Origin: a virus
Taxonomy: Duplodnaviria; Caudoviricetes
Reading direction: 5' to 3' (one strand)
IMG/VR virus record: IMGVR_UViG_2706795039_000001
Location: 1 to 64,000 of that record
DNA length: 64,000 nucleotides
Below, piece by piece: positions 33,237 to 58,750 of this stretch. Numbering within the stretch: the first letter of the stretch is position 1; each line of letters starts with the position of its first letter. The notes beneath the pieces were generated by a model that ran no database searches, was not told the origin of the DNA, and saw nothing but the letters and a program-made list of their open reading frames with translations. Both the position numbers and the translations under genes were made by a program.

Positions 33237-33237
33237 A

Positions 33238-33924: not shown

Positions 33925-34001
33925 TGGAGGAGGATACCGGACTCGAACCGGCTAATTCAGGATTTGCAATCCAGTGCCTCGACCACTTCAGCTTATCACC
34001 C
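33925..34001 (-). tRNA. tRNA-Cys(GCA)
   Basis: Loop TT-GCA-AA, U73, CCA. Confidence 0.9.
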
Positions 34002-34487: not shown

Positions 34488-34545
34488 CTTCTAAGTTCCT
34501 TTTTCAAACTTTATGAAACTATTATAAAGGAATAATACCTGTTTA

Positions 34546-34961: not shown

Positions 34962-34962
34962 A

Positions 34963-35328: not shown

Positions 35329-35329
35329 C

Positions 35330-35632
35330 CTAGACTCCTTTTAGCTTCGCTACTTCTGCGTCTGTTAGAGATACGTAACCCGAACATATAGGCCTACGAT
35401 TTGGCCTGTTTACCATTACTGGTACAAAGAACATATCTAGTATGTCGTTTTTCTCGATCCTACAGTAGTCGTAGTAGATACCAAACCTTTTTGCTGCGCG
35501 TGATATACGCTTGTGTTGCTTAATCGCTTTTTTGATTTCCAAAACGTGAAAAAGCTCTAGATCGTTTCTTTTTGCTAGGAGCAGTAGAGACGTAATTTTT
35601 GCTTTATTTCGTTTCGTCAGTTTTCTTTTCAT
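35330..35632 (-). CDS. Basic hypothetical protein
   Basis: ORF. Confidence 0.65.
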   Translation of the reverse strand: MKRKLTKRNKAKITSLLLLAKRNDLELFHVLEIKKAIKQHKRISRAAKRFGIYYDYCRIEKNDILDMFFVPVMVNRPNRRPICSGYVSLTDAEVAKLKGV

Positions 35633-35891
35633 GCTTATACTCCTGTTGCACTAGGGCAACATACCCACCTTCTACAGGGGTTACAAAGGCGTTTACGACA
35701 CGTTCACCCAAGTATGTTTTAATTGGGGGAGTTAATGGCAGTAACGCGCTAGCAATAGAGCAAAATTGGTCAAACGACACCCCAAATACTTCCTGAAGCT
35801 CTTCTTCAACCAGCTCTTCATCACTGTTCTCGTCCATACCTAGAACAGCTTCTGCTACACTATAGTATTCCCACCAGTCTGCTTTACTCAT
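35604..35891 (-). CDS. Hypothetical protein
   Basis: ORF; LLPLTP motif. Confidence 0.7.
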   Translation of the reverse strand: MSKADWWEYYSVAEAVLGMDENSDEELVEEELQEVFGVSFDQFCSIASALLPLTPPIKTYLGERVVNAFVTPVEGGYVALVQQEYKHEKKTDETK

Positions 35892-36148
35892 AGGATAATC
35901 TCCTTGTCTAATGCATTAATTGTGCTTCCCAAGAGAGCTATAGCCCATACTAGGGCGAAGCTATACAGAGGCACTGCTGTAACTGCACTAATATAAGTTA
36001 GTGCGCATGTCAAGAGCGTAGACACTGCCACAGCGGCTCTACGGTCTTTCTGCACAAAGTGCACATAAATTTTTTGGTATAAGAACATGCGCTCTATAAC
36101 TTTATTATGTGAGGTTGATTTCTTCATGTAATTAAGTCCTCTTTTCAA
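35888..36148 (-). CDS. Small membrane protein
   Basis: Two hydrophobic segments. Confidence 0.6.
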   Translation of the reverse strand: MKRGLNYMKKSTSHNKVIERMFLYQKIYVHFVQKDRRAAVAVSTLLTCALTYISAVTAVPLYSFALVWAIALLGSTINALDKEIIL

Positions 36149-36189
36149 TTTATAAGTAAATTATAAACTAAAAAGAGGATAGTTTCAAG

Positions 36190-36645
36190 TTAGAATTTTA
36201 CTAATCTAAACTCTAGGGTCACACCTTCTTCATAGACTAGGTGACTTGAAATTAGCTTGGCGCTATTTATCTTATCCATCACTCTTTGAGATAGGTAAAC
36301 GTCCCCTGAGAAAGTACCATGAATAAGAGTTATAAACCCGAACTCACATAAATCTATTCCAGACTCTATTAACTGAGCACCACCAATAAGGTAGCAGTCT
36401 TTCTTGTAGTGAGGAAGAGTCTTCCAAGTATCGAAGCCTGGGTATAAAGCTCTACTCGTGGTTACTACAACGTTTCTTCTGTTAGGTAAAGGGAAAGCTG
36501 GATGTTTAGCTGTGTTGCTTCCCATGATAATTGTGGAACCCTCAGTTAGATTCTTGAAGAACCTAAGGTCACTTGGGAAGTGCCAGGGCAGGCCGTTACC
36601 GGCCCCAATAAGGCCGGTAGGTGTCATTGCAATCACTAAATGCAT
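36190..36645 (-). CDS. frd: Dihydrofolate reductase
   Basis: IG..NGLPW..PSDL.FFK..T, IMG..T, PLPNRRNVV, IGGAQ. Confidence 0.95.
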   Translation of the reverse strand: MHLVIAMTPTGLIGAGNGLPWHFPSDLRFFKNLTEGSTIIMGSNTAKHPAFPLPNRRNVVVTTSRALYPGFDTWKTLPHYKKDCYLIGGAQLIESGIDLCEFGFITLIHGTFSGDVYLSQRVMDKINSAKLISSHLVYEEGVTLEFRLVKF

Positions 36646-36654
36646 AAAAGTACC

Positions 36655-37530
36655 TTACACACTAAATGGAATATCAATATGTTCTTGTGGAAAATAATCT
36701 GTAACAAGGAAATTGCTGGTCGTTACCCACGCCTCTAGATCTTCTAGAGATTCAATTGCTGGGTCAATCCAGAAAGTAGGAGGCTGTCGCTCTTCTCTAT
36801 CTAACATTTCCATAACTGCTGGTATTTGGTCTTCATAAATGTGCGCATTTACTATCTTATGAAACGCTCTGCCAGGTTCTAGTCCAGTTATTTGAGCAAC
36901 TATAGCTAGGAATGCGTACACTTGTACCATGTTGAAGTTAAGTCCTAACGGTACGTCACAAGAGCGCTGAGTAGCGTTAAGGTACAGTTTACTATTTAGT
37001 ATAGAGAACTGGAAGTTGTACATACAAGGGCGTAGGCAGCCCTGGTCGAACTCGCCTGGATTCCAGTAGCTTAGAATTTCGCCACGGTCGTCAATCCCCT
37101 TTGAGAGATTATTGATAATCTTTTCTAGTTGGTCTACTGACCGTAGCCCACCATAGCCGTCGGGTGACGTCCAATTCCTTCCCTGTACCCCGTAAACACG
37201 CCCCATGTCGTCTTCACCGCGCCTGTGAGGGTTTTTCAACCAAGCCTCATTGATGTTCGCGTTAGCATCCCAGGTCTTCGTACCTAGGTTTCTGAAGTCT
37301 TCTGCGTTAGAATAGCCTCTAATGTACCCTAGCAGCTCTGCTACTGCGGACTTCCAGAAAGATTTTCTAAGGCTAAGCAAGGGGAACTCGCCCGCCCCTA
37401 CATTATACTCTAGGTCATAGTTAATTACTGTTAGACAGCGCTTACCTGTGCGTTCGTTGTACACCCACTCACCATTTTCTAGGATGTGGCGTAGCAGCTG
37501 TTTATATTCGTAATCCATATTTTGCTCCAA
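36655..37530 (-). CDS. thyA: Thymidylate synthase
   Basis: [25 protein letters not shown]. Confidence 0.95.
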
Positions 37531-37543
37531 TAAAAATGGGAGC

Positions 37544-37750
37544 TTATCGCTCCCATTGATGTCTAACCTTTCTCTGGTCTTTCCAAGATCTGCTTACTGT
37601 CCTAGCTGGGCAGTCGTAGTAAGCTAAGTCAGAAGTATATACGTCTGAGTTCTTAAAAGGTCTTCTTGTTATACCATACTCTTTACATACTTGGTCATTT
37701 ATTAGGTAACGATGCCAAGATGCTTTCAAGTTGTGACGTCTGTACGCCAT
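37544..37750 (-). CDS. Basic small protein with C-terminal RSWK..RK..HQW motif
   Basis: GGAGG SD embedded in a long hairpin. Confidence 0.65.
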
Positions 37751-37843
37751 AGTTGCCTCCGTTTATCGTCGAATCAAGACCGTAGACGTTACGGTCTATA
37801 TTCGAATAGGAGGCTTCAAGTGTCTCTTATTCAAGGCTAGTCC

Positions 37844-38119
37844 TTAGTTAGAGGAGTTTGAAAATTCTGCTACCATTTTACCAGCCGAGTTCATTACTCG
37901 GATTACAGTAGAGCCTGTGAGTGGCCATGAATACTTTCCACCATCTGGGTCAACGCAGCTAAACTGATGGAACTTGAACTCTACTTCGTTCTCGTCTTCT
38001 GAACCTTCTTTCTGACCAACTACTGGTACAGTAGAAAAGTTTACCGCCTCAACGCAGAATAGTGCATCTAGGGAAAGCTCTGGGTACTTGTCTCTATTGG
38101 TTACTGTTACTGTGAACAT
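37844..38119 (-). CDS. Hypothetical protein
   Basis: ORF; VMNSAGK motif. Confidence 0.65.
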   Translation of the reverse strand: MFTVTVTNRDKYPELSLDALFCVEAVNFSTVPVVGQKEGSEDENEVEFKFHQFSCVDPDGGKYSWPLTGSTVIRVMNSAGKMVAEFSNSSN

Positions 38120-38124
38120 TTAAA

Positions 38125-38349
38125 CTACCGATATACGGGGTCTTTCCCGTCTTTGAAATGAACTTCATGCTTGCAAGCATATACAAAACCTGCCATACCT
38201 GGGGCATGGTACAGTATATCTTGTTCTGCTAATTCTTTACAGACTGGGCACTCGTCATATACGATCTTACGAAGTATAGGTAAACGCATGTTTTCTTCCA
38301 CATCTACGTCTACGATGCCTTGATTGAAGGTTATCACTTTATGTATCAT
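38125..38349 (-). CDS. Small Cys/His protein
   Basis: CPVC..CKH. Confidence 0.6.
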   Translation of the reverse strand: MIHKVITFNQGIVDVDVEENMRLPILRKIVYDECPVCKELAEQDILYHAPGMAGFVYACKHEVHFKDGKDPVYR

Positions 38350-38367
38350 ACGATTGACCTTATAAAT

Positions 38368-38455
38368 TGGCAGAGAGCAGCAGAATCGAACTGCAACCGT
38401 TTCCAGTCACTTCGCTTAGCAGGCGAGCCTAACCACCTTGGCTAGATTACTCTCT
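38368..38455 (-). tRNA. tRNA-Ser(GCU)
   Basis: Loop CT-GCT-AA, long variable arm, G73, CCA. Confidence 0.9.
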
Positions 38456-38490
38456 AAAAGTAAAGCCAGATAGATTCTGGCTTTAGTATA

Positions 38491-38566
38491 TGGCGCGGCT
38501 ACTAGGATTCTAACCTAGACGAACTCCTTCGTAGGGAGTCATGCTATACAGTTACATCATACCCGC
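38491..38566 (-). tRNA. tRNA-Arg(ACG)
   Basis: Loop CT-ACG-AA; atypical T loop TTAGAAT; CCA. Confidence 0.85.
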
Positions 38567-38572
38567 AAGAAT

Positions 38573-38648
38573 TGGTGCAGAGGACTGGAGTTGAACCAGT
38601 GACACCAGGATCTTCAATCCCGTGCTCTACCTACTGAGCTACCACTGC
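38573..38648 (-). tRNA. tRNA-Phe(GAA)
   Basis: Loop TT-GAA-GA, CCA. Confidence 0.9.
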
Positions 38649-38822
38649 ATTGTCACGTACACAACGGAACATTACTTGTTCGTTGGTTTTCTCTACTTCT
38701 TGAAGTCTGCCAGACTTTACTAGACGATAGCATTGCTGGCGCAGCTTATCTTGAGATTTCTTAAAACGGTTTACTACAAACACTTTATCAGTGGCTAGTT
38801 TTAGAAGTTTCTCAGTTTTCAT
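38631..38822 (-). CDS. Basic hypothetical protein
   Basis: GGAG SD; 3' end runs into tRNA-Phe. Confidence 0.55.
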   Translation of the reverse strand: MKTEKLLKLATDKVFVVNRFKKSQDKLRQQCYRLVKSGRLQEVEKTNEQVMFRCVRDNAVVAQ

Positions 38823-38948
38823 ATATACTTATACTCCAAGTAGTTTATTTTTAATGAGGCCGAGTTACTACGATCCTTTGGTGTTATCCGGCGAATTACG
38901 ATTCTTATCCGGTACTCGGCAAGCAGTAAAGGCGCTGCTATCGCGATT

Positions 38949-39025
38949 TGGTGCACCTTGCTGGGCTTGAACCAGCGACCTCACCCTTATGAGGGGTTTG
39001 CTCTAACCAACTAAGCTAAAGGCGC
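38949..39025 (-). tRNA. tRNA-CAU (elongator Met or Ile2)
   Basis: Loop CT-CAT-AA, paired 1-72, CCA. Confidence 0.85.
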
Positions 39026-39031
39026 TAAATA

Positions 39032-39107
39032 TGGTTCCCATGACTGGACTCGAACCAGTGACGCGGCGATTATCGGTCGCCTGTTCTACCAACTGAACTA
39101 CACGGGA
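39032..39107 (-). tRNA. tRNA-Ile(GAU)
   Basis: Loop CC-GAT-AA (C33), CCA. Confidence 0.85.
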
Positions 39108-39195
39108 AGAGATTGCTAGGACAGGAGTGTGCGACTCCAAGGTATTTTAATGCCTACCAAGGCTCACGACATTTTTTAATGCCCTAGCAAAATTT

Positions 39196-39342
39196 TTAAT
39201 CTGGATCTACATTTCTTGTGCCGTCTTCGTTAAACTCATTTGGGGAGTATTCTTCCCCACAATTGTGGCAACGAGCTTCATCTTCAAGGATCCAAACTGT
39301 ACCATCACAGTACCAACAGGGCGCTTTCTTACAAGTGTTCAC
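39196..39342 (-). CDS. 48-aa zinc-ribbon-like peptide
   Basis: GTG start; CWYC...CHNC; below the track cutoff. Confidence 0.5.
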   Translation of the reverse strand: MNTCKKAPCWYCDGTVWILEDEARCHNCGEEYSPNEFNEDGTRNVDPD

Positions 39343-39733
39343 GTGCCACCTTCGCTGCTAGTTTGGCATCGTATTGACCTGTGAAGTCATTTCGCAGTAG
39401 CTTCATGAACTCACCTACGTTAGTTACACCATGATCTACCATAATAGCTACCAAGTCTTGTTCAGACAGGAACTCCGGCAAAAGACTTTCTAGGAAGTCT
39501 GCTTCTGCATCATACTCTTTTGCTTTTTCAGCATCAGTAGTGCATAAACGAGAGTTGTCTCGGCAAGTGTCAATGGCTTTCTTGATCTTACCAATTACCA
39601 TGTCTTCGTTAACTTCTTTGTTCTGACGCACAAAGTCTTCAAAAGAAGCAATAATCACACCAACTGCTTTTGCATAAGGTGAACGCTCTTTACGTAGACC
39701 CATGTGAATTTCTTTTAGTGCTTGTAAGCGCAT
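39329..39733 (-). CDS. GatB/YqeY-domain protein
   Basis: E...L...LP..LSE..L and G..MK.L....GQYD.K motifs; within tRNA cluster. Confidence 0.8.
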   Translation of the reverse strand: MRLQALKEIHMGLRKERSPYAKAVGVIIASFEDFVRQNKEVNEDMVIGKIKKAIDTCRDNSRLCTTDAEKAKEYDAEADFLESLLPEFLSEQDLVAIMVDHGVTNVGEFMKLLRNDFTGQYDAKLAAKVAREHL

Positions 39734-39753
39734 CTTCTTTCCTTCTTCATTAT

Positions 39754-39907
39754 TACCATTTAAATAACACTCTCTGTCAGCTACCTACATTACCTAGTGT
39801 TGATACTGTAAGCACCTTCCCCAGGGTCACTACCCCCTATAGAGTGATTGCGTATTGCAGCATGACCTGTACTAATAAGCAACCATAAGAGTGCAAATTA
39901 AATGGTA
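39754..39907 (-). ncRNA. Putative ~150-nt rod-like RNA 3' of tRNA-Val
   Basis: TACCATTTAA/TTAAATGGTA, CACTCT/AGAGTG and G-U-rich inner stems. Confidence 0.45.
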
Positions 39908-39980
39908 CTCGGTACTGGAATCGAACCAGTTTCTAGCCTCCGTGTAAAGGAGGTGCAACGCCAAATTTTGCTAACCGAGT
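39903..39980 (-). tRNA. tRNA-Val(UAC)
   Basis: Loop TT-TAC-AC, CCA. Confidence 0.9.
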
Positions 39981-39985
39981 ATTTT

Positions 39986-40185
39986 TGAGGATTCACGTAC
40001 CTCAGTAAGGTGTACCCTCCAGCGGTACACTCAACGACTATTCTGACTTAGGCTCCGATAGCTCGGAGGGTGTTTCACTCTGTGGTCACTACTGATTGCA
40101 CTGAGTGGGAGTTCTTGCCACCGAGAATCGAACTCGGTTCTGCTGGGTGCAAGCCAACTGTTTTATCCACGTAAACTACAGCCCC
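39986..40185 (-). ncRNA. tRNA-Ala(UGC)-like domain with interrupted acceptor plus 3' structured extension
   Basis: GGGGCTG 5' end, D arm, CT-TGC-AC, CCGAG-TTCGATT-CTCGG, then TGGC-AAGAAC-TCCCA and further hairpins. Confidence 0.6.
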
Positions 40186-40189
40186 AAAA

Positions 40190-40396
40190 GTTATTTAGTT
40201 AAACTCACACTAGAAAGTGATCAGCTTTCGGCAAATACCTAGCTAGACATTAGCATTCCTCAATAGGTGATTGCAATCTTTGTGCTACCAGTAGCACAGA
40301 GTGAACCTTGGAGGCTTCCGGTTACATTATACACTCTTAGTAACCTGTCGCTACATTCTAGCGTCGATAGCACTGAATGTGAGTTTATTAAATAAC
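40190..40396 (-). ncRNA. Putative ~200-nt multibranch RNA
   Basis: ~20-bp closing stem GTTATTTAATAAACTCACA/TGTGAGTTTAACTAAATAAC with several internal hairpins. Confidence 0.5.
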
Positions 40397-40406
40397 TCTT
40401 TAGTCT

Positions 40407-40503
40407 AGAATCATGTGTACCAATAAGTTTGCATCTTATTGCGTACAAAAGCATATACACCAACCAAGTTGACAGCCTGGTTCTGGAAGCCATCCCAGAT
40501 TCT
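40407..40503 (-). ncRNA. Putative ~100-nt multibranch RNA
   Basis: AGAATC/GATTCT closure, TGTAC-CAATAAG hairpin, AACCA/TGGTT hairpin. Confidence 0.35.
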
Positions 40504-40513
40504 TTGCCTGAAC

Positions 40514-40600
40514 GTTACTCTTTAATGCAGCGGGACTCGAACCCACAACCACCACGACAGAGGGAAGCTCTAACCAGTTGAGCGTTATGCATTTAGTAAC
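40514..40600 (-). ncRNA. tRNA-like RNA (pseudo-tRNA) lacking CCA
   Basis: Intact D arm GCTC-AACTGGTTA-GAGC and T arm GTGGG-TTCGAGT-CCCGC; weak anticodon arm; extended acceptor. Confidence 0.6.
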
Positions 40601-40662
40601 TAGTATATGTTGGCAACGTGTTATATGTCACTGGCCTACTCATGACTCTAGCTAAAGAGCTA

Positions 40663-40739
40663 TGGCGTCCTAGAGAGGATTTGAACCTCTGACCTCTCCC
40701 TTAGGAGGGGAGCGCTCTATCCTGCTGAGCTACTAGGAC
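40663..40739 (-). tRNA. tRNA-Arg(CCU)
   Basis: Loop CT-CCT-AA, CCA. Confidence 0.9.
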
Positions 40740-50745: not shown

Positions 50746-51249
50746 CTACTTACCTCTCATTAGGACTAAGTTAGGCACCCAACAGAAGTTATCCTCTGTG
50801 AATACCTTAATAAATAATTCTGGGTTTGGCCCGAAGTAGGTAAAACACTGACCCCTACTGCCCTTACCCTTAGGTGTTAAATCTGGTTGTAAAAAGGATA
50901 TACGCCCATTAGTATATGCTTGGACTCCGCCTTGGAGAGCTATGTTCCATTGGGTATCTGTCCCAGAGTTAGTCAGCATAATGCCCTCAGTCATGACACC
51001 ACGCTTATACTCTTCTGCGAAATATTTTGTGAACTTCTTAATAAGCGCTGCTGAGTAAGGTGGGTTACACCACACCTTACCAAGCCACGGGTAGTTTAAC
51101 CCATTCTGTTCTTTTGTATAGTAGGTTTTAGCCCTTACTATAGTGTTCGCAGTAGGGTTAGATGCAGGGTCTAGGTCTATTTCCCCTAGTACCCTGCGAA
51201 CCTTGTCCATAATGAACTCTGGTGTGTACCACTCATCATTACTGTTCAT
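50746..51249 (-). CDS. Phage DNA N6-adenine methyltransferase
   Basis: DEWYTP, DLDPAS, NGL...W, WCNPPYS, GRISF; ATGA-coupled start 51249. Confidence 0.85.
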   Translation of the reverse strand: MNSNDEWYTPEFIMDKVRRVLGEIDLDPASNPTANTIVRAKTYYTKEQNGLNYPWLGKVWCNPPYSAALIKKFTKYFAEEYKRGVMTEGIMLTNSGTDTQWNIALQGGVQAYTNGRISFLQPDLTPKGKGSRGQCFTYFGPNPELFIKVFTEDNFCWVPNLVLMRGK

Positions 51250-52280
51250 AGGTGCTTGACCCTCTTCTGCATTTCTGCCTGTTTTCCCGCGTTGAATGGT
51301 CTGGCATCCGGGTTTCCTAAGTAACCACAAACCCTGCGAGTGACAGAGCAGCTTTCTTTGTCGTTATTACCACACTTAGGGCACTTGAAACCTTCCGAGG
51401 TGCATAGGAACTCTCCTTTATACCCGCACTTAAAGCACTCGTCTATTGGGGTGTTAGTACCATAATACGGTACTTGATAGTACGCGTAATTCCACACATC
51501 TTCCAATGCTTCTATGTTATTAATCATAGAAGGGAATTCCCCGTAACATATGTGGCCGCCCGCTGAGTAGGGTACGAACTGCGCTTCAAAATCGATCTTC
51601 TCGTAAGGTGTTACTTTCTTGGCTACGTCTAGGTGGAATGAGTTGGTCAGGTATCCTTTATCTGTGACACCTTCAAACTCCCCATACTCACGAACAATGG
51701 CTTTGCAGAAGCGATGACATAGTGACTCACTAGGAGTACCATATACAGAGTAGTTAATACCCTCTGCCTCTTTCCACTCACGTACCTTAGCATCTAGGAA
51801 TTTCAGAATATCTAAGCAAAACTCCTGCTTTTCTTCCGCATCATAGGTGTGAATTAGAGAACCCAGCATTGCATTTGCTGCTTCCTCTAGACCGATATAC
51901 CCTAGGGAGATAGAAGCTCCTCGCGCAATAAGGTGAGGCAGCACCAAGTCGTCTGGCTTCAAGCGTAATCCTAGGGCTCCTTCCATGTACATAATTGGAG
52001 CTGATTTAGCTGTGACTGTTGAGAGCCTTTCAATACGATATTGAAGCGCTCTGTGAGCAACTTCACAGTATTTATCCAGCAATTCCCAAAATTTATCGTA
52101 ATCACCTTGAGCTTCCAGTACGTATTTTGGTATATTAAGAGAAACTACGCCTAGGTTGTTGCGTCCCGCGTAATACTCGTTCCCTTCCGCATCGTATGCA
52201 GGGGATAGGAAGGACCTGCAACCCATAGGGGCTTTCACGCCACCAGTAATCTCTAATGTTTTGTGGTAGTTCAAAATATC
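51246..52280 (-). CDS. nrdD: Anaerobic RNR, exon 2
   Basis: DILN.., MGCRS, NLGVVSLN, TP.ESLC, TNSFH, CxxC..CxxC, RVCGYLG. Confidence 0.9.
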   Translation of the reverse strand, partial: DILNYHKTLEITGGVKAPMGCRSFLSPAYDAEGNEYYAGRNNLGVVSLNIPKYVLEAQGDYDKFWELLDKYCEVAHRALQYRIERLSTVTAKSAPIMYMEGALGLRLKPDDLVLPHLIARGASISLGYIGLEEAANAMLGSLIHTYDAEEKQEFCLDILKFLDAKVREWKEAEGINYSVYGTPSESLCHRFCKAIVREYGEFEGVTDKGYLTNSFHLDVAKKVTPYEKIDFEAQFVPYSAGGHICYGEFPSMINNIEALEDVWNYAYYQVPYYGTNTPIDECFKCGYKGEFLCTSEGFKCPKCGNNDKESCSVTRRVCGYLGNPDARPFNAGKQAEMQKRVKHL

Positions 52281-53123
52281 CGTGTTACCCATACTTTCAT
52301 ATGGCACTGACTATATCATTATCCTATGTAGGATCTCTGCACTTCGAGTGGTAGTTACTTCCACCCTACTCCCTGTCGGGATAGTCGATACACCTTCTAT
52401 TAGCTTCAAAGTAAGAATTAATCTTTGTTAAACTCTACTTGCCAAACCCCTTTATAGAGGGCATTACGTTTATAGGCACCGTGTACCCCAGTAGAGGAGA
52501 ATCTGCGGTCGAGTTTTTCTTTAGAAATACTAAAGAAACTTGGAAAATACACTACTTCTCCTGTTTCTTTGTTTGTTAGTTTTAGCGGTTTAACGTTAGG
52601 TTTGTTTCGCAGGTTTTCTTTCATGCTCACAAAACGTATGTTCCCAGGCTGGTATGGTATCTTACTATCCTTTCTATCTATAGAAAGGTCATCCAACCCA
52701 TACTTATCTAGCCCTAGTAAAAACTCATTAAAACAGGTGTTATAGTATTCTACAGTATCTGCAAAGTTCCACATACCTGAGTACCTAGGATAGTCCTTGC
52801 AGTTAGGGTTACAGCAGCGCTCTTTTGCGTATCGGTAGGAGTTTCTGAACTTATGCCATACCTCAACGCCGAACTCTTCTGTAACGTTTAATCTTATCTT
52901 TGTTATCTCTTGCATATAACCTCCAATATCTATTTACTAAATATTGAAGCTAATAGCTTGGCACGGGATTGCCACCTACTAATAATACAAAATATATCTA
53001 TCGACATTTCTTATATTACCTAGCTGAGGTTCCCCCGTTAGCCGCCAATTGGCGACACCTCGGAACTACCGAGTTCACAGAATTTTTCGACTAGGATTAC
53101 TCCTAGAAGCCCCAATAATTCTT
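52281..53123 (-). mobile_element. Group I self-splicing intron (843 nt) in nrdD
   Basis: Exon ends ...CCU, P1 CCCUAA/UUGGGG with U-G, P7 GACUA/UAGUC, P9 GAAA hairpin, terminal G; splicing restores RMYP-DIL. Confidence 0.9.
52418..52915 (-). CDS. Intron-encoded HNH homing endonuclease
   Basis: RC.NP...Y..Y, SIDR.D....Y.PGN.R......N..NK. Confidence 0.85.
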   Translation of the reverse strand: MQEITKIRLNVTEEFGVEVWHKFRNSYRYAKERCCNPNCKDYPRYSGMWNFADTVEYYNTCFNEFLLGLDKYGLDDLSIDRKDSKIPYQPGNIRFVSMKENLRNKPNVKPLKLTNKETGEVVYFPSFFSISKEKLDRRFSSTGVHGAYKRNALYKGVWQVEFNKD

Positions 53124-54263
53124 AGGGTACATTCTCTTACTAGCACACTCTAAGGCAAGAACCTTTATATCGTAGTTAGGGTCTTCTTTGTCTAAGTTAA
53201 GACCCTTTTTCAGGGTGAATACCAGTTTGGGAAATACTGGGGTTATCTTATCCTCACCTAATCCCTGTATTCTGGTGCGTAGTATGCCTTCTTGAATTAG
53301 TTTGGCTTCCCAAGTTTCCCCTAGACCGAAGCCAAAAGTGAGGAAGGGTGTTTGGCCATTAGTACAGTAAATGGTATTTACCTGATACTCTAAGGTTTGG
53401 CAAGCATCCATAACTGCCTTTTTGGTAGCTATCTTTGCTTCGCTCTCTATAACTGATAGAGCTAGAGGGTCTACGACCACATCTGTACCGGTAAATCTGC
53501 GGTACATATTCATAGCCCTTTTATATTCCTTCTTAAAGGTTCTAGCTACATAAGGCGCTAGAACTTCATCTAGCCTATCGAAACTTGTTCCACCAAACTG
53601 TTGGCTAGCCACAGCTGCTGCTACTTGAGACACTACTGTTGCTGCAGTCTGGATGGACTTTGGTGGCTCAATTCTGGCGTTACCCATTTTGAAGCCTCTT
53701 TCCAACATCCCTTTCAAATCTACTAGACAACAGTTGGTCAATCCCATCATTGGGCTGTAATCTAGGTCGTGAAAATGAATGTTTCCAGCTATATGCTCTC
53801 GTGCCGTTTCACGCGGTAGCAGATAGTTCAGAGCGTAGTGCCGAGATATTTCCCCTGCCAAGAGGTCTCGTTGCACATGGAATAGCGCCGACTCCTTGTT
53901 GGCATTCTCGTGCAGTAAATCAGGGTTTGTCTGGTTTACCAGACCAATTATGTTTTGGTGTAGAGAAGAGCGCAAATCCCGCGCCTGCTGACGATCATGG
54001 CTATACTCAATAAACTTACGTGCCACCTGCTTCCAGCAAGAGGACATTAGCGTATCTTCGATAAGTTCCTCGATCTCAAAAATGGTAACTGAAGACTTAT
54101 TGGAACTAAGTAGTTTGTTAACTACTAGCGTAGTTACGTCTTCTGCTACTTGATTAGCTTCGTTATACTCAAAGTCAGCATCACTTGCAGCCATGAAGAC
54201 CGCTTCAAAAATTTTGTCAGGTATTAGTGCCTGCCTTGTATTGTCTTTCTTGATGACCAGCAT
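53124..54263 (-). CDS. nrdD: Anaerobic RNR, exon 1 (ATP cone)
   Basis: VIKKD, ENANK, H..G.IH.HDLDY, NCCL, GQTPF, FPKL, KRMYP. Confidence 0.9.
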
Positions 54264-54524
54264 CTAAATGTCCTCCTAAGGAATACTATTCACAATTAGA
54301 TGGATATTATAACAATTAGCCCGGATCACGTCAAGAAAATTTTTTAGGGATCCTCCGACCTATGGCCTATTTAGAAAAATAATATCTTGCTGTCAAGTCG
54401 GGTGTCATGGTACTAGATACTCATTTATATACGCGCACGCGCGAGAGCTTTTTGGGTTAAAAAACTATTTGCTAAAGAGGTGGAAATTATAATAGAATGT
54501 TTAGGTAATTTTGGGAGACTGTCT

Positions 54525-54854
54525 ATGACACACGAAGAAAAACTGCTATTTATAAAAGAAATGGTTCAACACGTAGAACCCTATGTAACTAACCTGTACG
54601 TCTTAGGTAACGACGCTAGGATTAGGGTTTGTCCAGAGCAGCCGGAAAGCCTAGCTAAAGTGCTAGAGGAAGGTGCTCAACTAGAAATGTATTTTACCTA
54701 CAACGGAATCAGCCATCTGGTAATAGCACAAGTACCCTACGCTGTGCTCAGCAACAGAAACTACTCTAAGGAAGCAGCTGTTAGTGCAGGTAATTCCCTT
54801 CTAAAACAAATAGCTTGCAAGCTATTCAATCTCCCTCCATCAATCATGATGTAA
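54525..54854 (+). CDS. Hypothetical protein
   Basis: GGAG SD before MTHEEK; promoter TTGCTA-17-TATAAT upstream. Confidence 0.65.
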   Translation: MTHEEKLLFIKEMVQHVEPYVTNLYVLGNDARIRVCPEQPESLAKVLEEGAQLEMYFTYNGISHLVIAQVPYAVLSNRNYSKEAAVSAGNSLLKQIACKLFNLPPSIMM

Positions 54855-54863
54855 AAACCTTGA

Positions 54864-54892
54864 TTGACATTGATAATAAAATGTAATATACT
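54864..54892 (+). promoter_or_regulatory. Strong sigma70 promoter
   Basis: TTGACA-17-TATACT. Confidence 0.75.
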
Positions 54893-54898
54893 TATTAC

Positions 54899-55940
54899 TT
54901 AACTCAAAAGGCTCTGAAGAGCCTCTACTACTATTGCTCTTGTATACGCCAGGGGCAATAATAGTAGCATGCAGGAAAGCTCACCGAGGGTGGTGACTCC
55001 CCAACACACAAGTTATTTCGCAACGAGTATTTTGAGGCAGGTATAGTCCGTGAGGGCTAATTTACCTGATGGAAGGTGCGTAGCCCAGAGAGGTCTTGTT
55101 AACTTGGTAGTGTATGGACAAGAGAAGATACACTTGTGTAAGTAGCCGGGCTACTTACACGCCTAAGCCAAATAGCTAGGAGCTACGCGAGCCGTAGACC
55201 TAACCCACCAAAGTACGACACCAATGACGTCGGGCTATTAGTAAAGGTCTTGGAGAGTGAGTAAGCGAGCGAAGACGCATCCGGGGGGTACAGGCTAATT
55301 CCCCTCTGCCCAGTTGGTAAGCTGGCAAGGCGCTGATATGTGGTGGTAACTGGTCCGAGAATGACCCGCAAATGCCATAGCGGAGGTATGAAGCCCATAT
55401 CGCGAGCTGACGGAAGCCCCTAAAAAGGCTTTATGCAGGTCGAGCGTGAGACACAAACAGGAGGCCGGGCCCATGCAATGATGTCGTGACGAAGTGTGGG
55501 GGATATGGTTTGTTGTCGGATCGATGTAAGAGTGTAGTAGTAAATGCCGTAGGAAGCAAGTGTTATTTGAACGGTACTCACAGCCGGGGTGGAACTCCCG
55601 CATATCTAGGGATATGCATCAGATAATCTACGTACCTGCCCACCTAACGCGGGGGTAGCAGTATGGGAAGCGAAGCAGAGGAAGACCATTCAGGACGTAA
55701 CGAGCCTGAAACAACAAGCACCAGCGGATAAGATCCCTGGGTAGTAGCTGCGGTGAAGCTTGGGGTGACTAACCAACCGGGATAAAGGACTTTCCGGAAT
55801 AATCTTTTCATACGTAGAGAGAACAGCTATGAAGCGCGTCGAATTCCTATGAAGTCTTGACGGAGGAGGGCGCGATAAGTAGTGTAGACTCGGTACTAGG
55901 ATGTTGGCCTACAACGAAACACTGGAAAAATTCTTTTAAC
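54899..55940 (+). ncRNA. Candidate large (~1 kb) structured RNA / leader
   Basis: No + strand ORF in the track, looks GC-richer than its flanks, >15 hairpins, G-U pairs favouring the + strand. Confidence 0.55.
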
Positions 55941-55957
55941 TTAACTTGGAGTCTATA

Positions 55958-58750
55958 ATGCTAACGTTTATCGAAGGCATATTTAAGCCATACTTCTCTG
56001 GCTCGGAGTATATCGCTCCTGCTAGTATGGAGAAAGTTAGGCTTGCTAAGGTGTTTGACTCTCAAGGCAACTCAGTTGACCCGATTATGCCAAAGTTCTT
56101 TAACGTGGTAGAATCAGTTAACCCTAATGCTTTGGATCAAGCATTCAAATTAATCTCAGACTACCAAACCAACCCAGAGGTGGCGCTTGTGCGTGCAGCT
56201 CCGGTTGGCGCTATCCGTAGCATACGTAGGAACGCTGAGACATTTAACTGCTCTGTTAGGTCTAGAATTATTCACATGGACATAGATGGTATTTTTGAGG
56301 ATAGGGCACCTGTATCTCTAAAGGAGCAGGCTTTGATCTGCCTGGAATTCCTTAATGAGTTAGAGCCGGAAATCTTTCCTCTTGAAGCTGGATACATAGC
56401 AAAGGCTAGTGGTAGCTCAGGTATCAAGAAAGGAATCCGTCTTCACATGTACATGCAGAATGAGACGGCAGTCTCCAACGCTCAACTCAAGTATCTAGCA
56501 TACCGAGTGAATAAAAAATCTATGGAAAAACATGGATTTGAAATTCTCGATACATCTGTATATGATAAAGTTCATTTGATGTACACTGCTAACCCTGTTT
56601 TTGAAGATCCTCTTTTAGATCCATATAAGGACAAAGAGCGCTCTATCTATGTCGCAGGAAAATCTACTTTAATTCCAGATATAATGCCAGAATACAGAGG
56701 TATGGCTTCGTACACCCTGAAAAAAGAGCATTTCGACTTTATTACCGATATTGAAGGCTTCCATAGCTTCCCTAGCGAAGATTTTGAGAGGCGTATCGAC
56801 GTTCTACGAAATGCAAAAGACAACGTATTTATGCGGCATAGTATTTCTGTATACTGTGCTGCCTTAGAACAGGGTGTAGATATTAACTGGCTTGATGCAG
56901 AAGTAGAGAAGATTCTAGACGGATACGCTAATAGGAAGCGTTCATCAAAAATCTACATTAGCAACGCAAAGCAAGCAGCTTTAAAAATAATCCTAGCAAG
57001 GAGTCTGAGAAAGGTCGATTCAGATATAAGAATCTCTTCAGACCCTACTCATGGTAGTAGCCTACCTATAACTGAGCAGGAGACTAATAGCGCTGAAGCT
57101 GATAGATTCTTGAAAATTAATAGTCTACCCCCAGAAGGAGCAGTCACATTCATAAAAGCTAGCCTAGGGACTGGCAAAACAACTACTGTTCAATCATGGT
57201 TGAAAAGTGGCAAGTTCGAAGGAAGGTTCCTAGCTGTAACTAACACTGTCTCCTTAGTTGAAGGTAACGCCAAGAAGCTAGAGTCTGGCTGCTACAACAA
57301 GCTCAAAGACTTTACTGAATTTAGGGATGGTCAGACACATCGTATGTCAACCACTATTCACTCCTTGCATAGATTTTATGATACCATCACGCAGCGAGGT
57401 ATTGATATGCTATTCATTGATGAATGTGACGCAGTTATGAATGACATTTTATTTAGCGACTTAATCAAAGAAAGGGATAAGTGTATCAAGACACTTAAAC
57501 TTATCTTACAAGAAGCTAAGTATGTTGTACTATCTGACGGAGATATATCATCGGAAACAATAGAAGCTTATGCTAGGTTGTGTGACCCAGTAAAACCTGT
57601 GGTGATCTACAAACATGAACGTAGGATGCTAGAAGGGGCTAGGGCAATAGAGTTGATTGACGAAAACTCTGTGTGGGCTGCTTTACAAGGTTCGCTTGAT
57701 ATTGGCGAAAAGTGTCTGCTAGTTTCAGACTGCTCCCCAGATGAACTCAACGAAAAAGGTATTGCTCTGCGTGCCTCCACAGGTAGGAATATCAAAGAAG
57801 TGCATAAGAACTCTTCGCAAGATGCGGATATTAAGGAGATTCTTATGTATGGCAACGCTGCTCTTATTGGTCAGAATATCCAAGGATTATTATGTAGTCC
57901 TAGCGTGACTAGTGGCGTTGACTTTAATTACTTTGACTCCGTTTTCATTCTTACGCGGGATTCAGGCATCCACGCCCCAAACTTGCGCTTCCAAGCGCTA
58001 AGGCGCGACCGTGGCGCGAAGAATATCTACTACTTCACCAGCCCAATGACTGAAGGTTTCAGGGCTGGTGCGGATAAGTATGATGAAACACTTGGTTGGG
58101 CTTCACGTTGCAGAAGGATTTTTGCCAGAAGAAGGGAGAACGAGTGCCAGAAATACCGTTCTACCTTCAGGATGCTCTTAGTTGACCAGGGCTGTAAAAT
58201 CTCAATCGACCCTAGTCCTTGGGGTAAGATAGAAAGTGCAGCCTCTGTGTACAAAGAAGAGAGGATAAATGCAATCCTATCCGCAACACCATCCTTCTCA
58301 CTTCAACGTCACAACGATGCTTGGGAAATAAAAACCTTCATCACTAAATACTTTGACGATGTTGATGACATTGGGGACATTACTGCAAACCATGTAGAGA
58401 TGTGGCTGGAACTGAAACCACACGACAGAGCTAAGTTCTTCCACCGAGTGTTTAAGGATTATTGGAAGATTCTTAAACAGTGTACGCACTCATTTGAGCC
58501 TTTTGTAAAAGAGCTTAAAGAGAACCCTAACAAGTGGTATCAGTGTACGGGAATGGATGTACGTACTGAGAAGTGGCGTATAGCAAAAAACTTAAAGGCT
58601 ATGGGTATTGATGTAAAGCACCCAGGTAAATTCGACACTATTATTTCTTGGTATCGTACCTATTGCCAAATTGAGGGAATACAAATCCCGAAAGAGTTCA
58701 TGACCGAATCCGAGCTTTTCTTAGCAGGAGATAAAGATGCGTTGTTCTAA
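55958..58750 (+). CDS. obp: Replication origin-binding protein (primase-like N-terminus + SF2 helicase)
   Basis: ~930 aa; DID, S.S.G...RLH; ASLGTGKT, IDECD, SPS.TSGVDF, Q...R.R; T5 gene order. Confidence 0.85.
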   Translation: MLTFIEGIFKPYFSGSEYIAPASMEKVRLAKVFDSQGNSVDPIMPKFFNVVESVNPNALDQAFKLISDYQTNPEVALVRAAPVGAIRSIRRNAETFNCSVRSRIIHMDIDGIFEDRAPVSLKEQALICLEFLNELEPEIFPLEAGYIAKASGSSGIKKGIRLHMYMQNETAVSNAQLKYLAYRVNKKSMEKHGFEILDTSVYDKVHLMYTANPVFEDPLLDPYKDKERSIYVAGKSTLIPDIMPEYRGMASYTLKKEHFDFITDIEGFHSFPSEDFERRIDVLRNAKDNVFMRHSISVYCAALEQGVDINWLDAEVEKILDGYANRKRSSKIYISNAKQAALKIILARSLRKVDSDIRISSDPTHGSSLPITEQETNSAEADRFLKINSLPPEGAVTFIKASLGTGKTTTVQSWLKSGKFEGRFLAVTNTVSLVEGNAKKLESGCYNKLKDFTEFRDGQTHRMSTTIHSLHRFYDTITQRGIDMLFIDECDAVMNDILFSDLIKERDKCIKTLKLILQEAKYVVLSDGDISSETIEAYARLCDPVKPVVIYKHERRMLEGARAIELIDENSVWAALQGSLDIGEKCLLVSDCSPDELNEKGIALRASTGRNIKEVHKNSSQDADIKEILMYGNAALIGQNIQGLLCSPSVTSGVDFNYFDSVFILTRDSGIHAPNLRFQALRRDRGAKNIYYFTSPMTEGFRAGADKYDETLGWASRCRRIFARRRENECQKYRSTFRMLLVDQGCKISIDPSPWGKIESAASVYKEERINAILSATPSFSLQRHNDAWEIKTFITKYFDDVDDIGDITANHVEMWLELKPHDRAKFFHRVFKDYWKILKQCTHSFEPFVKELKENPNKWYQCTGMDVRTEKWRIAKNLKAMGIDVKHPGKFDTIISWYRTYCQIEGIQIPKEFMTESELFLAGDKDALF

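What the first reader, a model, noticed from the sequence alone, without database searches (positions are those of the whole stretch)
54864..55957. ~1-kb promoter-driven, ORF-free, densely structured RNA upstream of the origin-binding helicase
Seen: consensus TTGACA-17-TATACT, then ~1,050 nt with no + strand ORF in an otherwise gene-dense genome. Helices are nearly back-to-back: AGGCTCT/AGAGCCT; CTACTATTGCTCTTG/CAGGGGCAATAATAGTAG; CAGGTA-TAGTCC-GTGA-GGGCTA-TACCTG (GNRA loop); GTGTAAGTAGC/GCTACTTACAC; AGACCT/AGGTCT; GATATG/CATATC; TTCAGG/CCTGAA; TTCATA/TATGAA. G-U pairs indicate the + strand. I could not recognise group I/II, RNase P or tmRNA signatures. Inference: a candidate new large ncRNA class (GOLLD/ROOL size range), or a replication-primer/origin RNA acting with the downstream primase-helicase and phage RNase H, near the point where transcription diverges.
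Basis: partly seen in the sequence, partly recalled or inferred. Interest (0 to 1): 0.85.

Follow-up and report, generated by a model that had tools for sequence, protein, structure and literature searches.

The report
Long leader RNA before phage primase-helicase
The 1-kb gene-free stretch in front of the replication primase-helicase gene of this Vibrio cholerae phage is a promoter-driven untranslated leader, an enlarged and very diverged relative of an undescribed folded leader RNA found at the same place in related phages, and its function is still unknown.

Summary
A near-consensus sigma-70 promoter (54864-54892) is followed by 1,06 kb with no conserved ORF, GC-richer than its flanks, running without a terminator into the obp/D2 gene (55958). 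The window is a Vibrio phage JSF10-like genome, and the stretch is unannotated there. No Rfam family matches.

It is not a free-standing GOLLD/ROOL-type RNA. It is the 5' leader of the primase-helicase mRNA. Positions 55343-55954 are homologous (nhmmer E 2.7e-4) to the shorter leaders of other Ermolyevavirinae, and compensatory changes support folded helices in those leaders. The + strand is the folded one.

For the window itself the structural evidence is only moderate: three stems at conserved anchor points, weak covariance-model hits and four natural variants that keep pairing. Folding energies and one independent mapping test gave no signal.

The leader core is replaced wholesale between near-identical phages, partly together with the N-terminal part of the protein, which I find to have a primase-polymerase (AEP) fold. 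I read it as a cognate RNA partner of the initiator: pre-primer or origin RNA, or an expression operator.

This scan found the T5-type counterpart at least 8 times before on other genomes. New here are the Vibrio-phage version, its size and the cassette evidence.

The parts
54864..54892 (+). Sigma-70-type early promoter TTGACA-17-TATACT; the inferred transcription start is near 54899
   Evidence: 11 of 12 consensus positions. Both hexamers are conserved in all 10 Vibrio-type leaders. The start site is inferred, not measured.
54899..55957 (+). Untranslated leader of the obp/D2 mRNA, about 1,06 kb
   Evidence: There is no + strand ORF over 46 aa, no conserved reading frame, no terminator before the start codon and no Rfam match.
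54910..54923 (+). 5'-proximal hairpin GGCUC-UGAA-GAGCC, about 11 nt from the inferred 5' end
   Evidence: It aligns with the first hairpin GAUUC-GAAA-GAGUC of the relatives (helix 67-74/79-86, second hit 54862-54956, E 0.084).
54957..55342 (+). JSF10-specific GC-rich expansion, including the GUGA-loop hairpin 55038-55068 and the perfect hairpin 55136-55160
   Evidence: It is not covered by the nhmmer alignment to relatives. BLASTN finds it only in JSF10 and JSF12. It holds the strongest local folding z-scores, on both strands. Variants 55059 A>G and 55154 C>U keep pairing as G-U.
55343..55954 (+). Conserved leader body, homologous to positions 201-707 of the Achelous-type leader profile
   Evidence: nhmmer E 2.7e-4 over the whole 64-kb window, both strands, colinear.
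55444..55527 (+). Long irregular hairpin; its core is 55451-55461 ACACAAACAGG paired with 55506-55516 UGGUUUGUUGU
   Evidence: It aligns to the helix AGGUAUAUUGG / UUGGUAUAUUCU of the relatives with several changes on both sides. That structure was predicted with the window in the alignment.
55526..55534 (+). Conserved single-stranded island GUAAGAGUG, which opens the 3' domain
   Evidence: UAAGAGU is invariant in all 10 Vibrio-type leaders, 297-433 nt before the start codon.
55531..55553 (+). 5' strand of the long-range helix that closes the 3' domain (AGUG at 55531-55534; GUAGG at 55549-55553)
   Evidence: It pairs with 55908-55923. In relatives the extension covaries: UGGUAACAAAA/UUUUGGUAUUA, UGGUAAUGAAAA/UUUUUAGUGCUA, UAUUAUU/AGUAAUA and UAUUAUUGUAU/GUACAAUAACA. 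This is my reading of those outputs.
55562..55627 (+). Stem P-a: a 9-bp outer stem (55562-55570 with 55619-55627) enclosing a three-way junction
   Evidence: It lies at the same place between the anchors AAGYG and YWAC as the P-a hairpins of relatives. Only 26 of 20000 shuffles reach 9 terminal pairs. The covariance model R2 aligns it.
55636..55657 (+). Stem P-b, a hairpin after the conserved ACGUACC
   Evidence: It has 5 terminal pairs, reached by 898 of 20000 shuffles. In relatives all 5 pairs show changes on both sides (helix 3).
55880..55898 (+). Hairpin P-z, displaying the conserved loop motif (G/C)UCGG
   Evidence: It has 6 terminal pairs, reached by 911 of 20000 shuffles.
55908..55923 (+). 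3' strand of the closing helix (CCUAC at 55908-55912; CACU at 55920-55923)
55948..55951 (+). Shine-Dalgarno GGAG of obp
   Evidence: GGAG is conserved in the relatives.
55958..58750 (+). obp/D2 gene (930 aa): an N-terminal AEP primase-polymerase-like domain of about 250 aa, a helical region, then an SF2 helicase of the herpes UL9 type
   Evidence: phrog_3712 with E reported as 0. PF02399 covers aa 393-541. The AlphaFold model of aa 1-400 has pLDDT 77.6. The top Foldseek hits are AEP folds. D108, D110, H163 and D198 are invariant in 11 sequences.

Best explanation
IDENTITY (about 0.8). The stretch is the 5' untranslated leader of the mRNA for the T5 D2-type primase-helicase. It is transcribed by host RNA polymerase from its own early promoter. 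It is the largest and most diverged known version of a folded leader RNA that sits at this position in the Vibrio phages of the Ermolyevavirinae.

From 5' to 3' it consists of:
- a conserved 5' hairpin;
- a lineage-specific GC-rich expansion (54957-55342);
- a conserved body hairpin;
- a 3' domain of about 390 nt that begins with GUAAGAGUG and is closed by a long-range helix just before the ribosome-binding site.

MECHANISM (inferred, about 0.35-0.4). The folded core is the cognate nucleic-acid partner of the N-terminal primase-polymerase/helix-turn-helix part of the protein encoded right behind it. Transcription through the leader would give a structured RNA that the initiator recognises to start DNA synthesis. 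This could be a pre-primer or R-loop origin RNA in the manner of ColE1 RNA II or the pSYSA ssr7036 transcript.

What is shown:
- the promoter sequence and the absence of coding capacity;
- homology to relatives;
- covariation in the relatives and folding of the + strand;
- wholesale replacement of the core between near-identical phages;
- the AEP fold of the protein's N-terminal domain.

What is inferred: that the stretch is transcribed, that the window's copy folds like its relatives, that protein and RNA interact at all, and any role in priming.
For: POSITION AND ANATOMY
- Searches give the anatomy.
- The same promoter plus a long ORF-poor gap stands before obp in every Demerecviridae locus with enough upstream DNA. 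The leaders are 665-843 nt in the 9 Vibrio-type relatives. In T5-type loci, 27 of the 30 with a recognisable promoter measure 506-532 nt from promoter to start.

HOMOLOGY
- The Achelous-type profile hits window 55343-55954 at E 2.7e-4 in 64 kb.

STRUCTURE IN RELATIVES
- A model built from 3 leaders (pVp-1, Wyman, KIT04) finds 6 of 6 Achelous-type leaders at the expected place (E 7e-5 to 6e-3) with different stem sequences.
- On the resulting alignment of 9 leaders, 99.5% of cells pair against 29.5-50% when partners are slid. Sixteen of 30 pairs show changes on both sides, against 0-3 when slid.
- For T5-type leaders, 94% of cells pair against 35-45% slid, and 31 of 60 pairs are compensated against 8-14 slid. 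None of 500 shuffles reach the observed values.

STRAND
- G-U cells outnumber A-C cells 131 to 8 (T5 type) and 20 to 0 (Vibrio type).

THE WINDOW ITSELF
- Stems P-a, P-b, P-z and the closing helix stand at the conserved anchors.
- The only hit of model R2 in the whole window is 55525-55665 on the + strand.
- All 4 natural variants that fall in short-range stems keep pairing, 3 of them by creating a G-U on the + strand.

CASSETTE
- Achelous vs Wyman: upstream flank 98%, leader 5' part 99%, leader body 33%, obp first 950 nt 74%.
- VPG01 vs pVp-1: 95, 96, 37 and 72%.
- Within one type the body is better kept than the flank: 93% vs 79% and 89% vs 69%.
- Between Achelous and pVp-1, Obp aa 1-400 are 68-84% identical and aa 400-800 are 92-100%.

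PROTEIN AND PRECEDENT
- The N-terminal domain has an AEP fold.
- T5 D2 has been proposed as a replication initiator (PMC3632103, passages read).
- Precedent for a transcript upstream of a primase-helicase Rep that likely primes replication: PMC9978351 (abstract read).
Against: - No expression data: no RNA run was listed (see Tried and rejected).
- Folding energy is no better than shuffles over 55200-55900, and a coding control scores better.
- With a structure predicted from the 6 Achelous-type leaders alone, the window keeps only 24 of 89 pairs where it differs from them. Slid controls keep 34-43 of 90-99. So there is no independent compensatory signal for the window itself.
- Covariance-model hits on the window are weak: R1 gives 7.4 bits, E 0.037 in 1.1 kb; R2 gives 12 bits, E 1.1 in 64 kb.
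- In T5-type phages the core is swapped with little change in obp: 82-86% against 89-92% for the rest of the gene. The link to the primase domain may therefore be hitch-hiking of adjacent DNA.
- There are no iterons or AT-rich unwinding element in the leader and no antisense promoter, both of which ColE1-type control would lead one to expect.
- No RNase H gene was seen in 58.7-64 kb.
- The alignment behind one search was fitted to the model's structure, which favours that structure.
Confidence: 0.5

Rival explanations
1. It is purely an expression-control leader. The folded RNA sets the translation, stability or processing of the obp/D2 message. One route would be an operator bound by D2 itself, as T4 gp43 and gp32 bind their own leaders. 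Another would be a processing site like the lambda N leader or the T7 early RNase III sites. In this reading it has no role in priming.
For: - It is contiguous with the ribosome-binding site, with no terminator between.
- It stands at the same position in all Demerecviridae examined.
- It has a 5'-terminal hairpin typical of stabilised messages.
- Co-replacement with the N-terminal part of the protein fits a protein-operator pair as well as it fits an origin.
- RNAalifold pairs a 5' pyrimidine stretch with the Shine-Dalgarno in both subfamilies.
Against: - The pairing with the Shine-Dalgarno region is no better than in dinucleotide shuffles in 11 of 11 leaders tested. The fraction of shuffles at least as good is 0.13-0.98, and the best site moves from leader to leader.
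- 0.5-1 kb with nested long-range helices is far more than known translational operators use (recalled, not tested).
- A generic control element gives no reason for wholesale sequence replacement with the fold retained.
Confidence: 0.3
2. It is a free-standing or processed trans-acting large ncRNA, a new class in the GOLLD/ROOL/OLE size range. It would be cut out of the leader and act on something other than obp, for instance as a decoy against a host defence.
For: - Its size, the lack of any Rfam match and the conserved loop motifs (GUAAGAGUG, GUCGG) fit.
- Rapid allelic replacement with the fold retained is what an arms race would give.
Against: - No terminator or recognisable processing signal ends it before obp.
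- It is always tied to this one gene in 40 of 40 loci fetched with the protein.
- No copy is found elsewhere in the window by profile or model.
Confidence: 0.1
3. It is a fast-evolving spacer without function of its own. In this reading it is a promoter plus recombination debris between two conserved recombination points, and the hairpins are incidental.
For: - Folding energies do not differ from shuffles over most of the leader.
- The window shows no independent compensatory signal.
- The leader body is unalignable between close phages.
Against: - Relatives show strong covariation against slid and shuffled controls.
- Within one type the body is better conserved than the neighbouring genes: 93% vs 79% and 89% vs 69%.
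- Colinear conserved islands are shared by all four types.
- G-U cells far outnumber A-C cells.
Confidence: 0.08
4. It is a circularly permuted or degenerate group II (or group I) ribozyme in the leader. This is the reading another first-stage note gave for the same stretch.
For: - The hairpin 55038-55068 looks like domain V: two helices, a bulge on the 3' strand and a GNRA loop.
- A GUGCG follows at 55087.
Against: - No intron model matches at E<=10 on the stretch.
- The hairpin has AGG where the catalytic AGC triad should be, and a 3-nt bulge where 2 nt are expected (my reading; the domain V consensus is recalled).
- The hairpin lies in the JSF10-specific expansion and is absent from all 9 relatives.
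- obp is not interrupted: it aligns from Met1 with its relatives.
- There is no intron-encoded protein.
Confidence: 0.02

Closest known systems
T5-type D2 leader RNA (Tequintavirus, Epseptimavirus and relatives). It is not in Rfam and I found no paper on it. Earlier follow-ups of this scan noted it at least 8 times.
   Same: - Its own early sigma-70 promoter, directly upstream of the orthologous gene.
- A large untranslated leader with nested long-range helices kept by compensatory changes.
- A highly conserved 5' part followed by a core replaced wholesale between near-identical phages.
- Folding of the + strand.
   Different: - No detectable sequence similarity: the T5 profile finds no Vibrio-type leader below E 0.2, and model R1 finds none of the 5 T5-type loci searched.
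- It is half the length.
- Whether the two are homologous or only analogous is unresolved.
ColE1 RNA II pre-primer, and the pSYSA ssr7036 transcript with the primase-helicase CyRepA1 (PMC9978351)
   Same: A promoter-driven, folded transcript of several hundred nt next to or upstream of the replication machinery. In pSYSA it stands directly upstream of a protein with primase and helicase domains and 'likely primes' replication (abstract read).
   Different: - Those systems have an overlapping antisense RNA and RNase E or RNase H processing. Here no antisense promoter was found in the leader, and nothing is known of processing.
- No origin has been mapped.
- This is a lytic phage, not a copy-controlled plasmid.
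Retron and DRT ncRNA-reverse transcriptase cassettes (recalled, no call)
   Same: A structured RNA encoded immediately 5' of the polymerase that uses it, on the same transcript, inherited and exchanged as a pair.
   Different: The polymerase here has an AEP primase-polymerase fold, not a reverse transcriptase. No evidence exists that it uses the leader as primer or template.
Large bacterial and phage ncRNAs of unknown function (GOLLD, ROOL, OLE, raiA, HEARO)
   Same: The size range, occurrence in a phage and ornate multi-helix architecture.
   Different: - None of their Rfam models match.
- This RNA is a gene leader tied to one gene, not a free-standing gene near tRNAs.
Translational operators and processed leaders of phage replication genes (T4 gene 43 and gene 32 operators, the lambda N leader; recalled, with the gene 32 operator as quoted in PMC10690425)
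   Same: A cis element in the 5' UTR of a replication gene. Protein-operator pairs co-evolve.
   Different: Those elements are tens to about 200 nt. Pairing of this leader with its Shine-Dalgarno is not above chance.

Membership tests
Ermolyevavirinae obp/D2 leader RNA (unnamed; types Achelous, pVp-1, Wyman/KIT04) | Lies between a conserved sigma-70 promoter and the obp start, with no ORF | tested here: met
Ermolyevavirinae obp/D2 leader RNA (unnamed; types Achelous, pVp-1, Wyman/KIT04) | Colinear sequence homology of the leader body | tested here: met
   nhmmer with the Achelous-type profile gives E 2.7e-4 at window 55343-55954, the top hit in 64 kb. The pVp-1/Wyman/KIT04 profile alone hits only the promoter region (E 0.25). 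BLASTN finds nothing.
Ermolyevavirinae obp/D2 leader RNA (unnamed; types Achelous, pVp-1, Wyman/KIT04) | Conserved islands GUAAGAGU, AAGYG, ACGUAC, UAGCAG/UAGUAA, ACGUAG, (G/C)UCGGUA and ACACU, in that order | tested here: met
Ermolyevavirinae obp/D2 leader RNA (unnamed; types Achelous, pVp-1, Wyman/KIT04) | Stems P-a and P-b and the closing helix of the 3' domain, scored by a covariance model | tested here: inconclusive
   The stems are present at the anchors. The models score the window weakly: R1 gives 7.4 bits, E 0.037 in 1.1 kb. R2 gives 12.0 bits, E 1.1 in 64 kb, and E 0.044 in 3 kb. Mapping of the structure predicted from Achelous-type leaders alone shows no compensatory excess.
T5-type D2 leader RNA | Sequence or structure similarity to the T5-type core (GAUACGGAACAGU, GGCUUAGCGGCC, nested helices) | tested here: not met
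   nhmmer finds no hit on Vibrio-type leaders below E 0.2.
Group II intron, normal or circularly permuted | Domain V with the AGC triad and a 2-nt bulge; a match to the Rfam intron models | tested here: not met
   No intron model matches at E<=10. The candidate hairpin reads AGG with a 3-nt bulge and is absent from relatives.
GOLLD / ROOL / OLE / raiA / HEARO and all other Rfam 15 families | A covariance-model match | tested here: not met
   The only hit in 10 kb at E<=1 is a group I-like signal outside the finding. On the stretch itself there are 3 chance-level hits at E 5.7-9.9.
ColE1-type pre-primer RNA | The RNA-DNA transition at a mapped origin; RNase H processing; an antisense regulator | not testable with these tools
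   No antisense promoter lies in the leader. No RNase H was seen in 58.7-64 kb. Origin mapping needs experiments.
AEP primase-polymerase superfamily (for the N-terminal domain of the downstream protein) | The AEP fold with the acidic DxD motif and a conserved histidine | tested here: met
   Foldseek gives 5 matches at E<=0.001, all the LigD polymerase domain. Further AEP hits include HSV primase, PrimPolC, ASFV PrimPol, VACV D5 and S-2L PrimPol. TM-scores are low (0.2-0.4). D108, D110, H163 and D198 are invariant in 11 sequences. The motif definitions are recalled. Sequence searches against Pfam and the PDB find nothing.

The most novel reading that the evidence does not exclude
The leader core and the AEP primase-polymerase domain may form an RNA-protein initiation cassette, comparable to a retron ncRNA with its reverse transcriptase. 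The folded RNA, encoded just 5' of the polymerase that recognises it, would serve as specific primer, template or loading scaffold for the first DNA synthesis of the phage. Alternative, mutually unalignable alleles that keep the same fold would circulate among near-identical phages because the pair sets replication-initiation specificity, or is a target of host defence.
Probability: 0.2. Interest if true: 0.85.

Novelty: new variant of a known kind. Interest (0 to 1): 0.6.

Why it matters
- T5 and its relatives are classic model phages and common therapy candidates, yet their replication origin has never been mapped to sequence. The paper on D2 only cites electron-microscopy evidence for multiple internal origins (PMC3632103, passages).
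- An undescribed folded RNA of 0.5-1 kb stands directly in front of the candidate initiator across a whole phage family. Its fold is kept while its sequence is replaced wholesale between near-identical phages. That gives a concrete, testable place to look for the origin or its control.
- The JSF10 copy shows that the element exists outside the enterobacterial T5 group and can double in size.
- The natural allele swaps (Achelous/Wyman, VPG01/pVp-1) are ready-made experiments.
- If the RNA works with the AEP primase-polymerase domain, it would be a new kind of polymerase-RNA partnership.

Tried and rejected
1. FOLDING ENERGY AS EVIDENCE
For the 1000-nt block, z is -2.08 on + and -0.60 on -, but a coding control gives -3.46. 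In the 200-nt profile only 54800-55100 stands out, and on both strands. I do not use energy as support.

2. SHINE-DALGARNO SEQUESTRATION BY A 5' SEGMENT
The candidates were UCUCCU/GGGAGA in relatives, GACUCC 54995-55000 with GGAGUC 55948-55953 in the window, and UUCUUG/CAGGAG in T5. The best duplex is no better than 200 dinucleotide shuffles in 11 of 11 leaders. Dropped.

3. INDEPENDENT COVARIATION TEST FOR THE WINDOW
I mapped a structure predicted from the 6 Achelous-type leaders only onto the window. Overall 93 of 158 pairs can form (58.9%, against 36-43% slid). Of the 89 pairs where the window differs, only 24 still pair, against 34-43 of 90-99 slid. No signal. The test is weak because those 6 sequences are 90-99% alike and the alignment of variable parts is uncertain.
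With the window included in the prediction, 17 pairs change on both sides against 1-5 slid, and 45 of 156 are broken. That count is biased towards the structure.

4. COVARIANCE MODELS ON THE WINDOW
They give weak hits only.

5. HOMOLOGY BETWEEN T5-TYPE AND VIBRIO-TYPE LEADERS
nhmmer is negative. The question stays open.

6. CODING CAPACITY
tblastx of the window leader against 10 relatives' leaders gives nothing below E 0.9. The 102-aa and 71-aa minus-strand ORFs have no conserved counterpart.

7. INTRON OR RIBOZYME READING
Rejected.

8. ITERON-TYPE ORIGIN
There are only two-copy repeats of 11-20 nt and no arrays.

9. MORE JSF10-TYPE RELATIVES
- BLASTN finds 4 records, JSF10 and JSF12 each filed twice.
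- A degenerate pattern of the obp start finds the same 4 IMG/VR contigs.
- The same pattern finds 0 metagenome contigs.

10. EXPRESSION
No RNA holder was listed among the 14 runs that hold part of the stretch. The contigs laid are DNA or of unknown kind.
Of the 6 variants that fall in long-range MFE pairs, 4 break them. I do not trust the long-range MFE pairs.

11. LITERATURE
Searches found no paper describing this leader.
- PMC10690425 ('over ten thousand candidate structured RNAs in viruses and phages') does not mention helicase, primase, Demerecviridae or Tequintavirus in its main text.
- Bourguignon et al. 1976 on T5 origins is not held.

12. N-TERMINAL DOMAIN BY SEQUENCE
The PDB and Pfam searches find nothing. 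The fold assignment rests on one AlphaFold model built from 11 sequences, with low TM-scores.
Full report
WHAT THE WINDOW IS

The stretch 54864-55957 is 99.5% identical to Vibrio phage JSF10 and JSF12 (Demerecviridae, Ermolyevavirinae, Jesfedecavirus). Those are the only 4 records of 50,697 phage records with any BLASTN match, and nothing is annotated under the match.

To the left, the nrd genes run on the minus strand. To the right, a plus-strand replication operon begins:
- obp/D2 (55958-58750, phrog_3712);
- a small helicase;
- a DNA-binding protein;
- a regulator;
- NAD ligase;
- a DprA-like protein.

CHECKING THE OBSERVATION

- Promoter: TTGACA-17-TATACT lies at 54864-54892 and scores 11 of 12.
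- ORFs: the longest plus-strand ORF between the promoter and the obp start is 46 aa.
- Composition: GC rises to 49-54% from about 40%, with G and A excess on the + strand.
- Terminator: no terminator-like site lies between the promoter and obp on the + strand. The RNA should therefore continue into the gene. It is a leader, not a separate gene.

Folding energy does not single the region out.
- The + strand folds better than the - strand (z -2.08 against -0.60).
- A coding block of the same length gives z -3.46.
- In 200-nt windows only the first 300 nt are exceptional, on both strands. The remaining 700 nt fold like their shuffles.

KNOWN FAMILIES

- Rfam 15 gives nothing for the stretch at E<=1 in a 10-kb search. 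At E<=10 on the stretch alone it gives only 3 chance-level matches.
- The T5 counterpart is equally blank.
- Another first-stage note read the stretch as a circularly permuted group II ribozyme. I reject that. No intron model matches. The domain-V-like hairpin 55038-55068 lacks the AGC triad and lies in a segment that no relative has. The obp gene is uninterrupted.

RELATIVES

The protein is found in 907 phage records and 40 IMG/VR loci.

T5-type phages:
- They have a conserved TTGC-N17-TATAAT promoter.
- In 27 of the 30 loci where the pattern matched, the leader measures 506-532 nt from promoter to start. In 3 loci it is 626-629 nt. Four loci had no match.
- On 11 non-redundant leaders RNAalifold predicts 60 pairs. 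Of the cells, 94% pair, against 35-45% when the partners are slid.
- 31 pairs have changes on both sides, against 8-14 slid. None of 500 shuffles reach the observed values.

This is the element that earlier follow-ups of this scan reported at least 8 times on other genomes. My check agrees with them.

Vibrio-type relatives:
- The Vibrio phages closest to the window carry leaders of 665-843 nt.
- They fall into three mutually almost unalignable types: Achelous-like (6 sequences used), pVp-1, and Wyman/KIT04.
- They share a nearly identical first 160 nt. The pVp-1 leader matches 52 records, but 43 of them over nt 5-161 only.
- They also share a set of short colinear islands.
- A covariance model built from pVp-1, Wyman and KIT04 alone finds all 6 Achelous-type leaders at the right place. 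It finds none of the 5 T5-type loci, nor L003 or L028, at a significant level.
- On the resulting 9-sequence alignment, 99.5% of cells pair and 16 of 30 pairs are compensated, against 0-3 when slid. That alignment was fitted to the model, which favours it.
- G-U cells outnumber A-C cells 131 to 8 and 20 to 0. The + strand is therefore the one that folds.

IS THE WINDOW A MEMBER?

Sequence says yes. The Achelous-type profile hits 55343-55954 at E 2.7e-4 as the best hit in the whole window, colinear with profile positions 201-707. The promoter and first hairpin make a second, weak hit. The segment 54957-55342 has no counterpart and holds the strongest hairpins.

Structure gives a mixed answer. 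In favour:
- At the conserved anchors the window forms the same elements as its relatives, with different sequences.
- P-a has 9 terminal pairs, reached by 26 of 20000 shuffles. P-b has 5 pairs (898 of 20000). P-z has 6 pairs (911 of 20000).
- There is a closing helix, AGUG/CACU plus GUAGG/CCUAC. I chose the segment borders after seeing the folds.
- Four natural variants in short-range stems, seen in contigs of public runs, all keep pairing. Three of them create a G-U on the + strand.

Against:
- The covariance models score the window weakly.
- A structure predicted without the window shows no compensatory excess in it.

I therefore hold the identity as a leader RNA of this family at about 0.8. 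The detailed fold of the window's copy is provisional.

THE CASSETTE

Between phages whose flanks are 95-99% identical, the leader body is essentially replaced and the first 950 nt of obp drop:
- Achelous vs Wyman: body 33% identity, obp start 74%.
- VPG01 vs pVp-1: body 37%, obp start 72%.

Between distant phages that share a type, the body is better conserved than the flanking genes: 93% against 79%, and 89% against 69%.

At protein level, Achelous and pVp-1 are 68-84% identical over aa 1-400 and 92-100% over aa 400-800.

In T5-type phages the core is replaced just as sharply (47% against 95-98% in the flanks). The effect on obp is small there (82-86% against 89-92%). The link to the protein may therefore be partly hitch-hiking.

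THE PROTEIN

- The N-terminal 390 aa match nothing by sequence.
- An AlphaFold model (pLDDT 77.6) matches AEP primase-polymerase folds throughout the top of the Foldseek list.
- The residues D108, D110, H163 and D198 are invariant.
- T5 D2 was characterised as a bipolar helicase with the UL9-type domain and a predicted helix-turn-helix at aa 308-329. It was proposed as a replication initiator (PMC3632103, passages read).

MECHANISM

The facts to explain are these:
- a fold kept through wholesale sequence replacement;
- a fixed place directly before a primase-helicase initiator;
- an early promoter;
- partial co-replacement with the primase domain.

They point to a specific partnership between the folded RNA and the initiator. 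I put a pre-primer or origin role first. The precedents are ColE1 RNA II (recalled) and the pSYSA transcript upstream of the primase-helicase CyRepA1 (PMC9978351, abstract). An expression operator comes a close second.

Three results speak against simple versions of both. The leader has no iterons and no antisense promoter. Pairing with the Shine-Dalgarno is not above chance. Nothing here shows transcription, protein binding or priming.

VERDICT

- The element is an undescribed leader RNA, not a known family.
- It is a new, enlarged variant of something this scan has already seen in T5-type phages.
- Its function is open and experimentally approachable.

Noticed in passing
window 51246-54263 (- strand): The anaerobic ribonucleotide reductase gene nrdD is in two pieces (51246-52307 and 53103-54263). 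A 165-aa HNH-endonuclease-like ORF (52418-52915) lies between them, with a sub-threshold group I intron signal at 52288-52494 (RF00028, 22.9 bits, gathering score 50). In phage Achelous nrdD is one 2175-nt gene. This looks like a group I intron with a homing endonuclease, as in T4 nrdD (the T4 case is recalled).
   Followed up: partly
window 55958-57157 (+): The N-terminal ~250 aa of the obp/D2 protein have an archaeo-eukaryotic primase (AEP, prim-pol) fold with invariant D108, D110, H163 and D198. Pfam and PDB sequence searches miss it. The published T5 D2 work that I read describes only the helicase part and a helix-turn-helix.
   Followed up: partly
L006 vs L049, and L051 vs L007 (leader body plus first ~1.2 kb of obp): Near-identical Vibrio phages (flanks 95-99% identical) carry unalignable leader cores. 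There are at least two independent replacements. The first 160 nt of the leader are 92-99% conserved in most pairs compared (82-86% for pairs with KIT04) and may be the left recombination point.
   Followed up: yes
window 54910-54923: On the minus strand, the first hairpin of the leader is followed by UUUUGAGUU. It could also act as an intrinsic terminator for leftward transcription. The feature is not conserved in the relatives.
   Followed up: no
L016, L033 and L042 (T5-type loci), just after the promoter: Three T5-type leaders carry an extra ~100 nt after the first 50 nt of the transcript. This is a variable insertion site, like the one in the Vibrio-type leaders (Ceto, Wyman/KIT04 and the window).
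   Followed up: no
window 32536-40739 (- strand): Ten tRNA genes reach the Rfam gathering score. Other first-stage notes list odd tRNA-like and spacer RNAs in this cluster. I did not examine them.
   Followed up: no
window 54480-54854 (+): The small gene before the leader promoter (124 aa, phrog_38658, unknown function) has a counterpart annotated in the same position in the six Vibrio-type relatives whose annotation was viewed.
   Followed up: no
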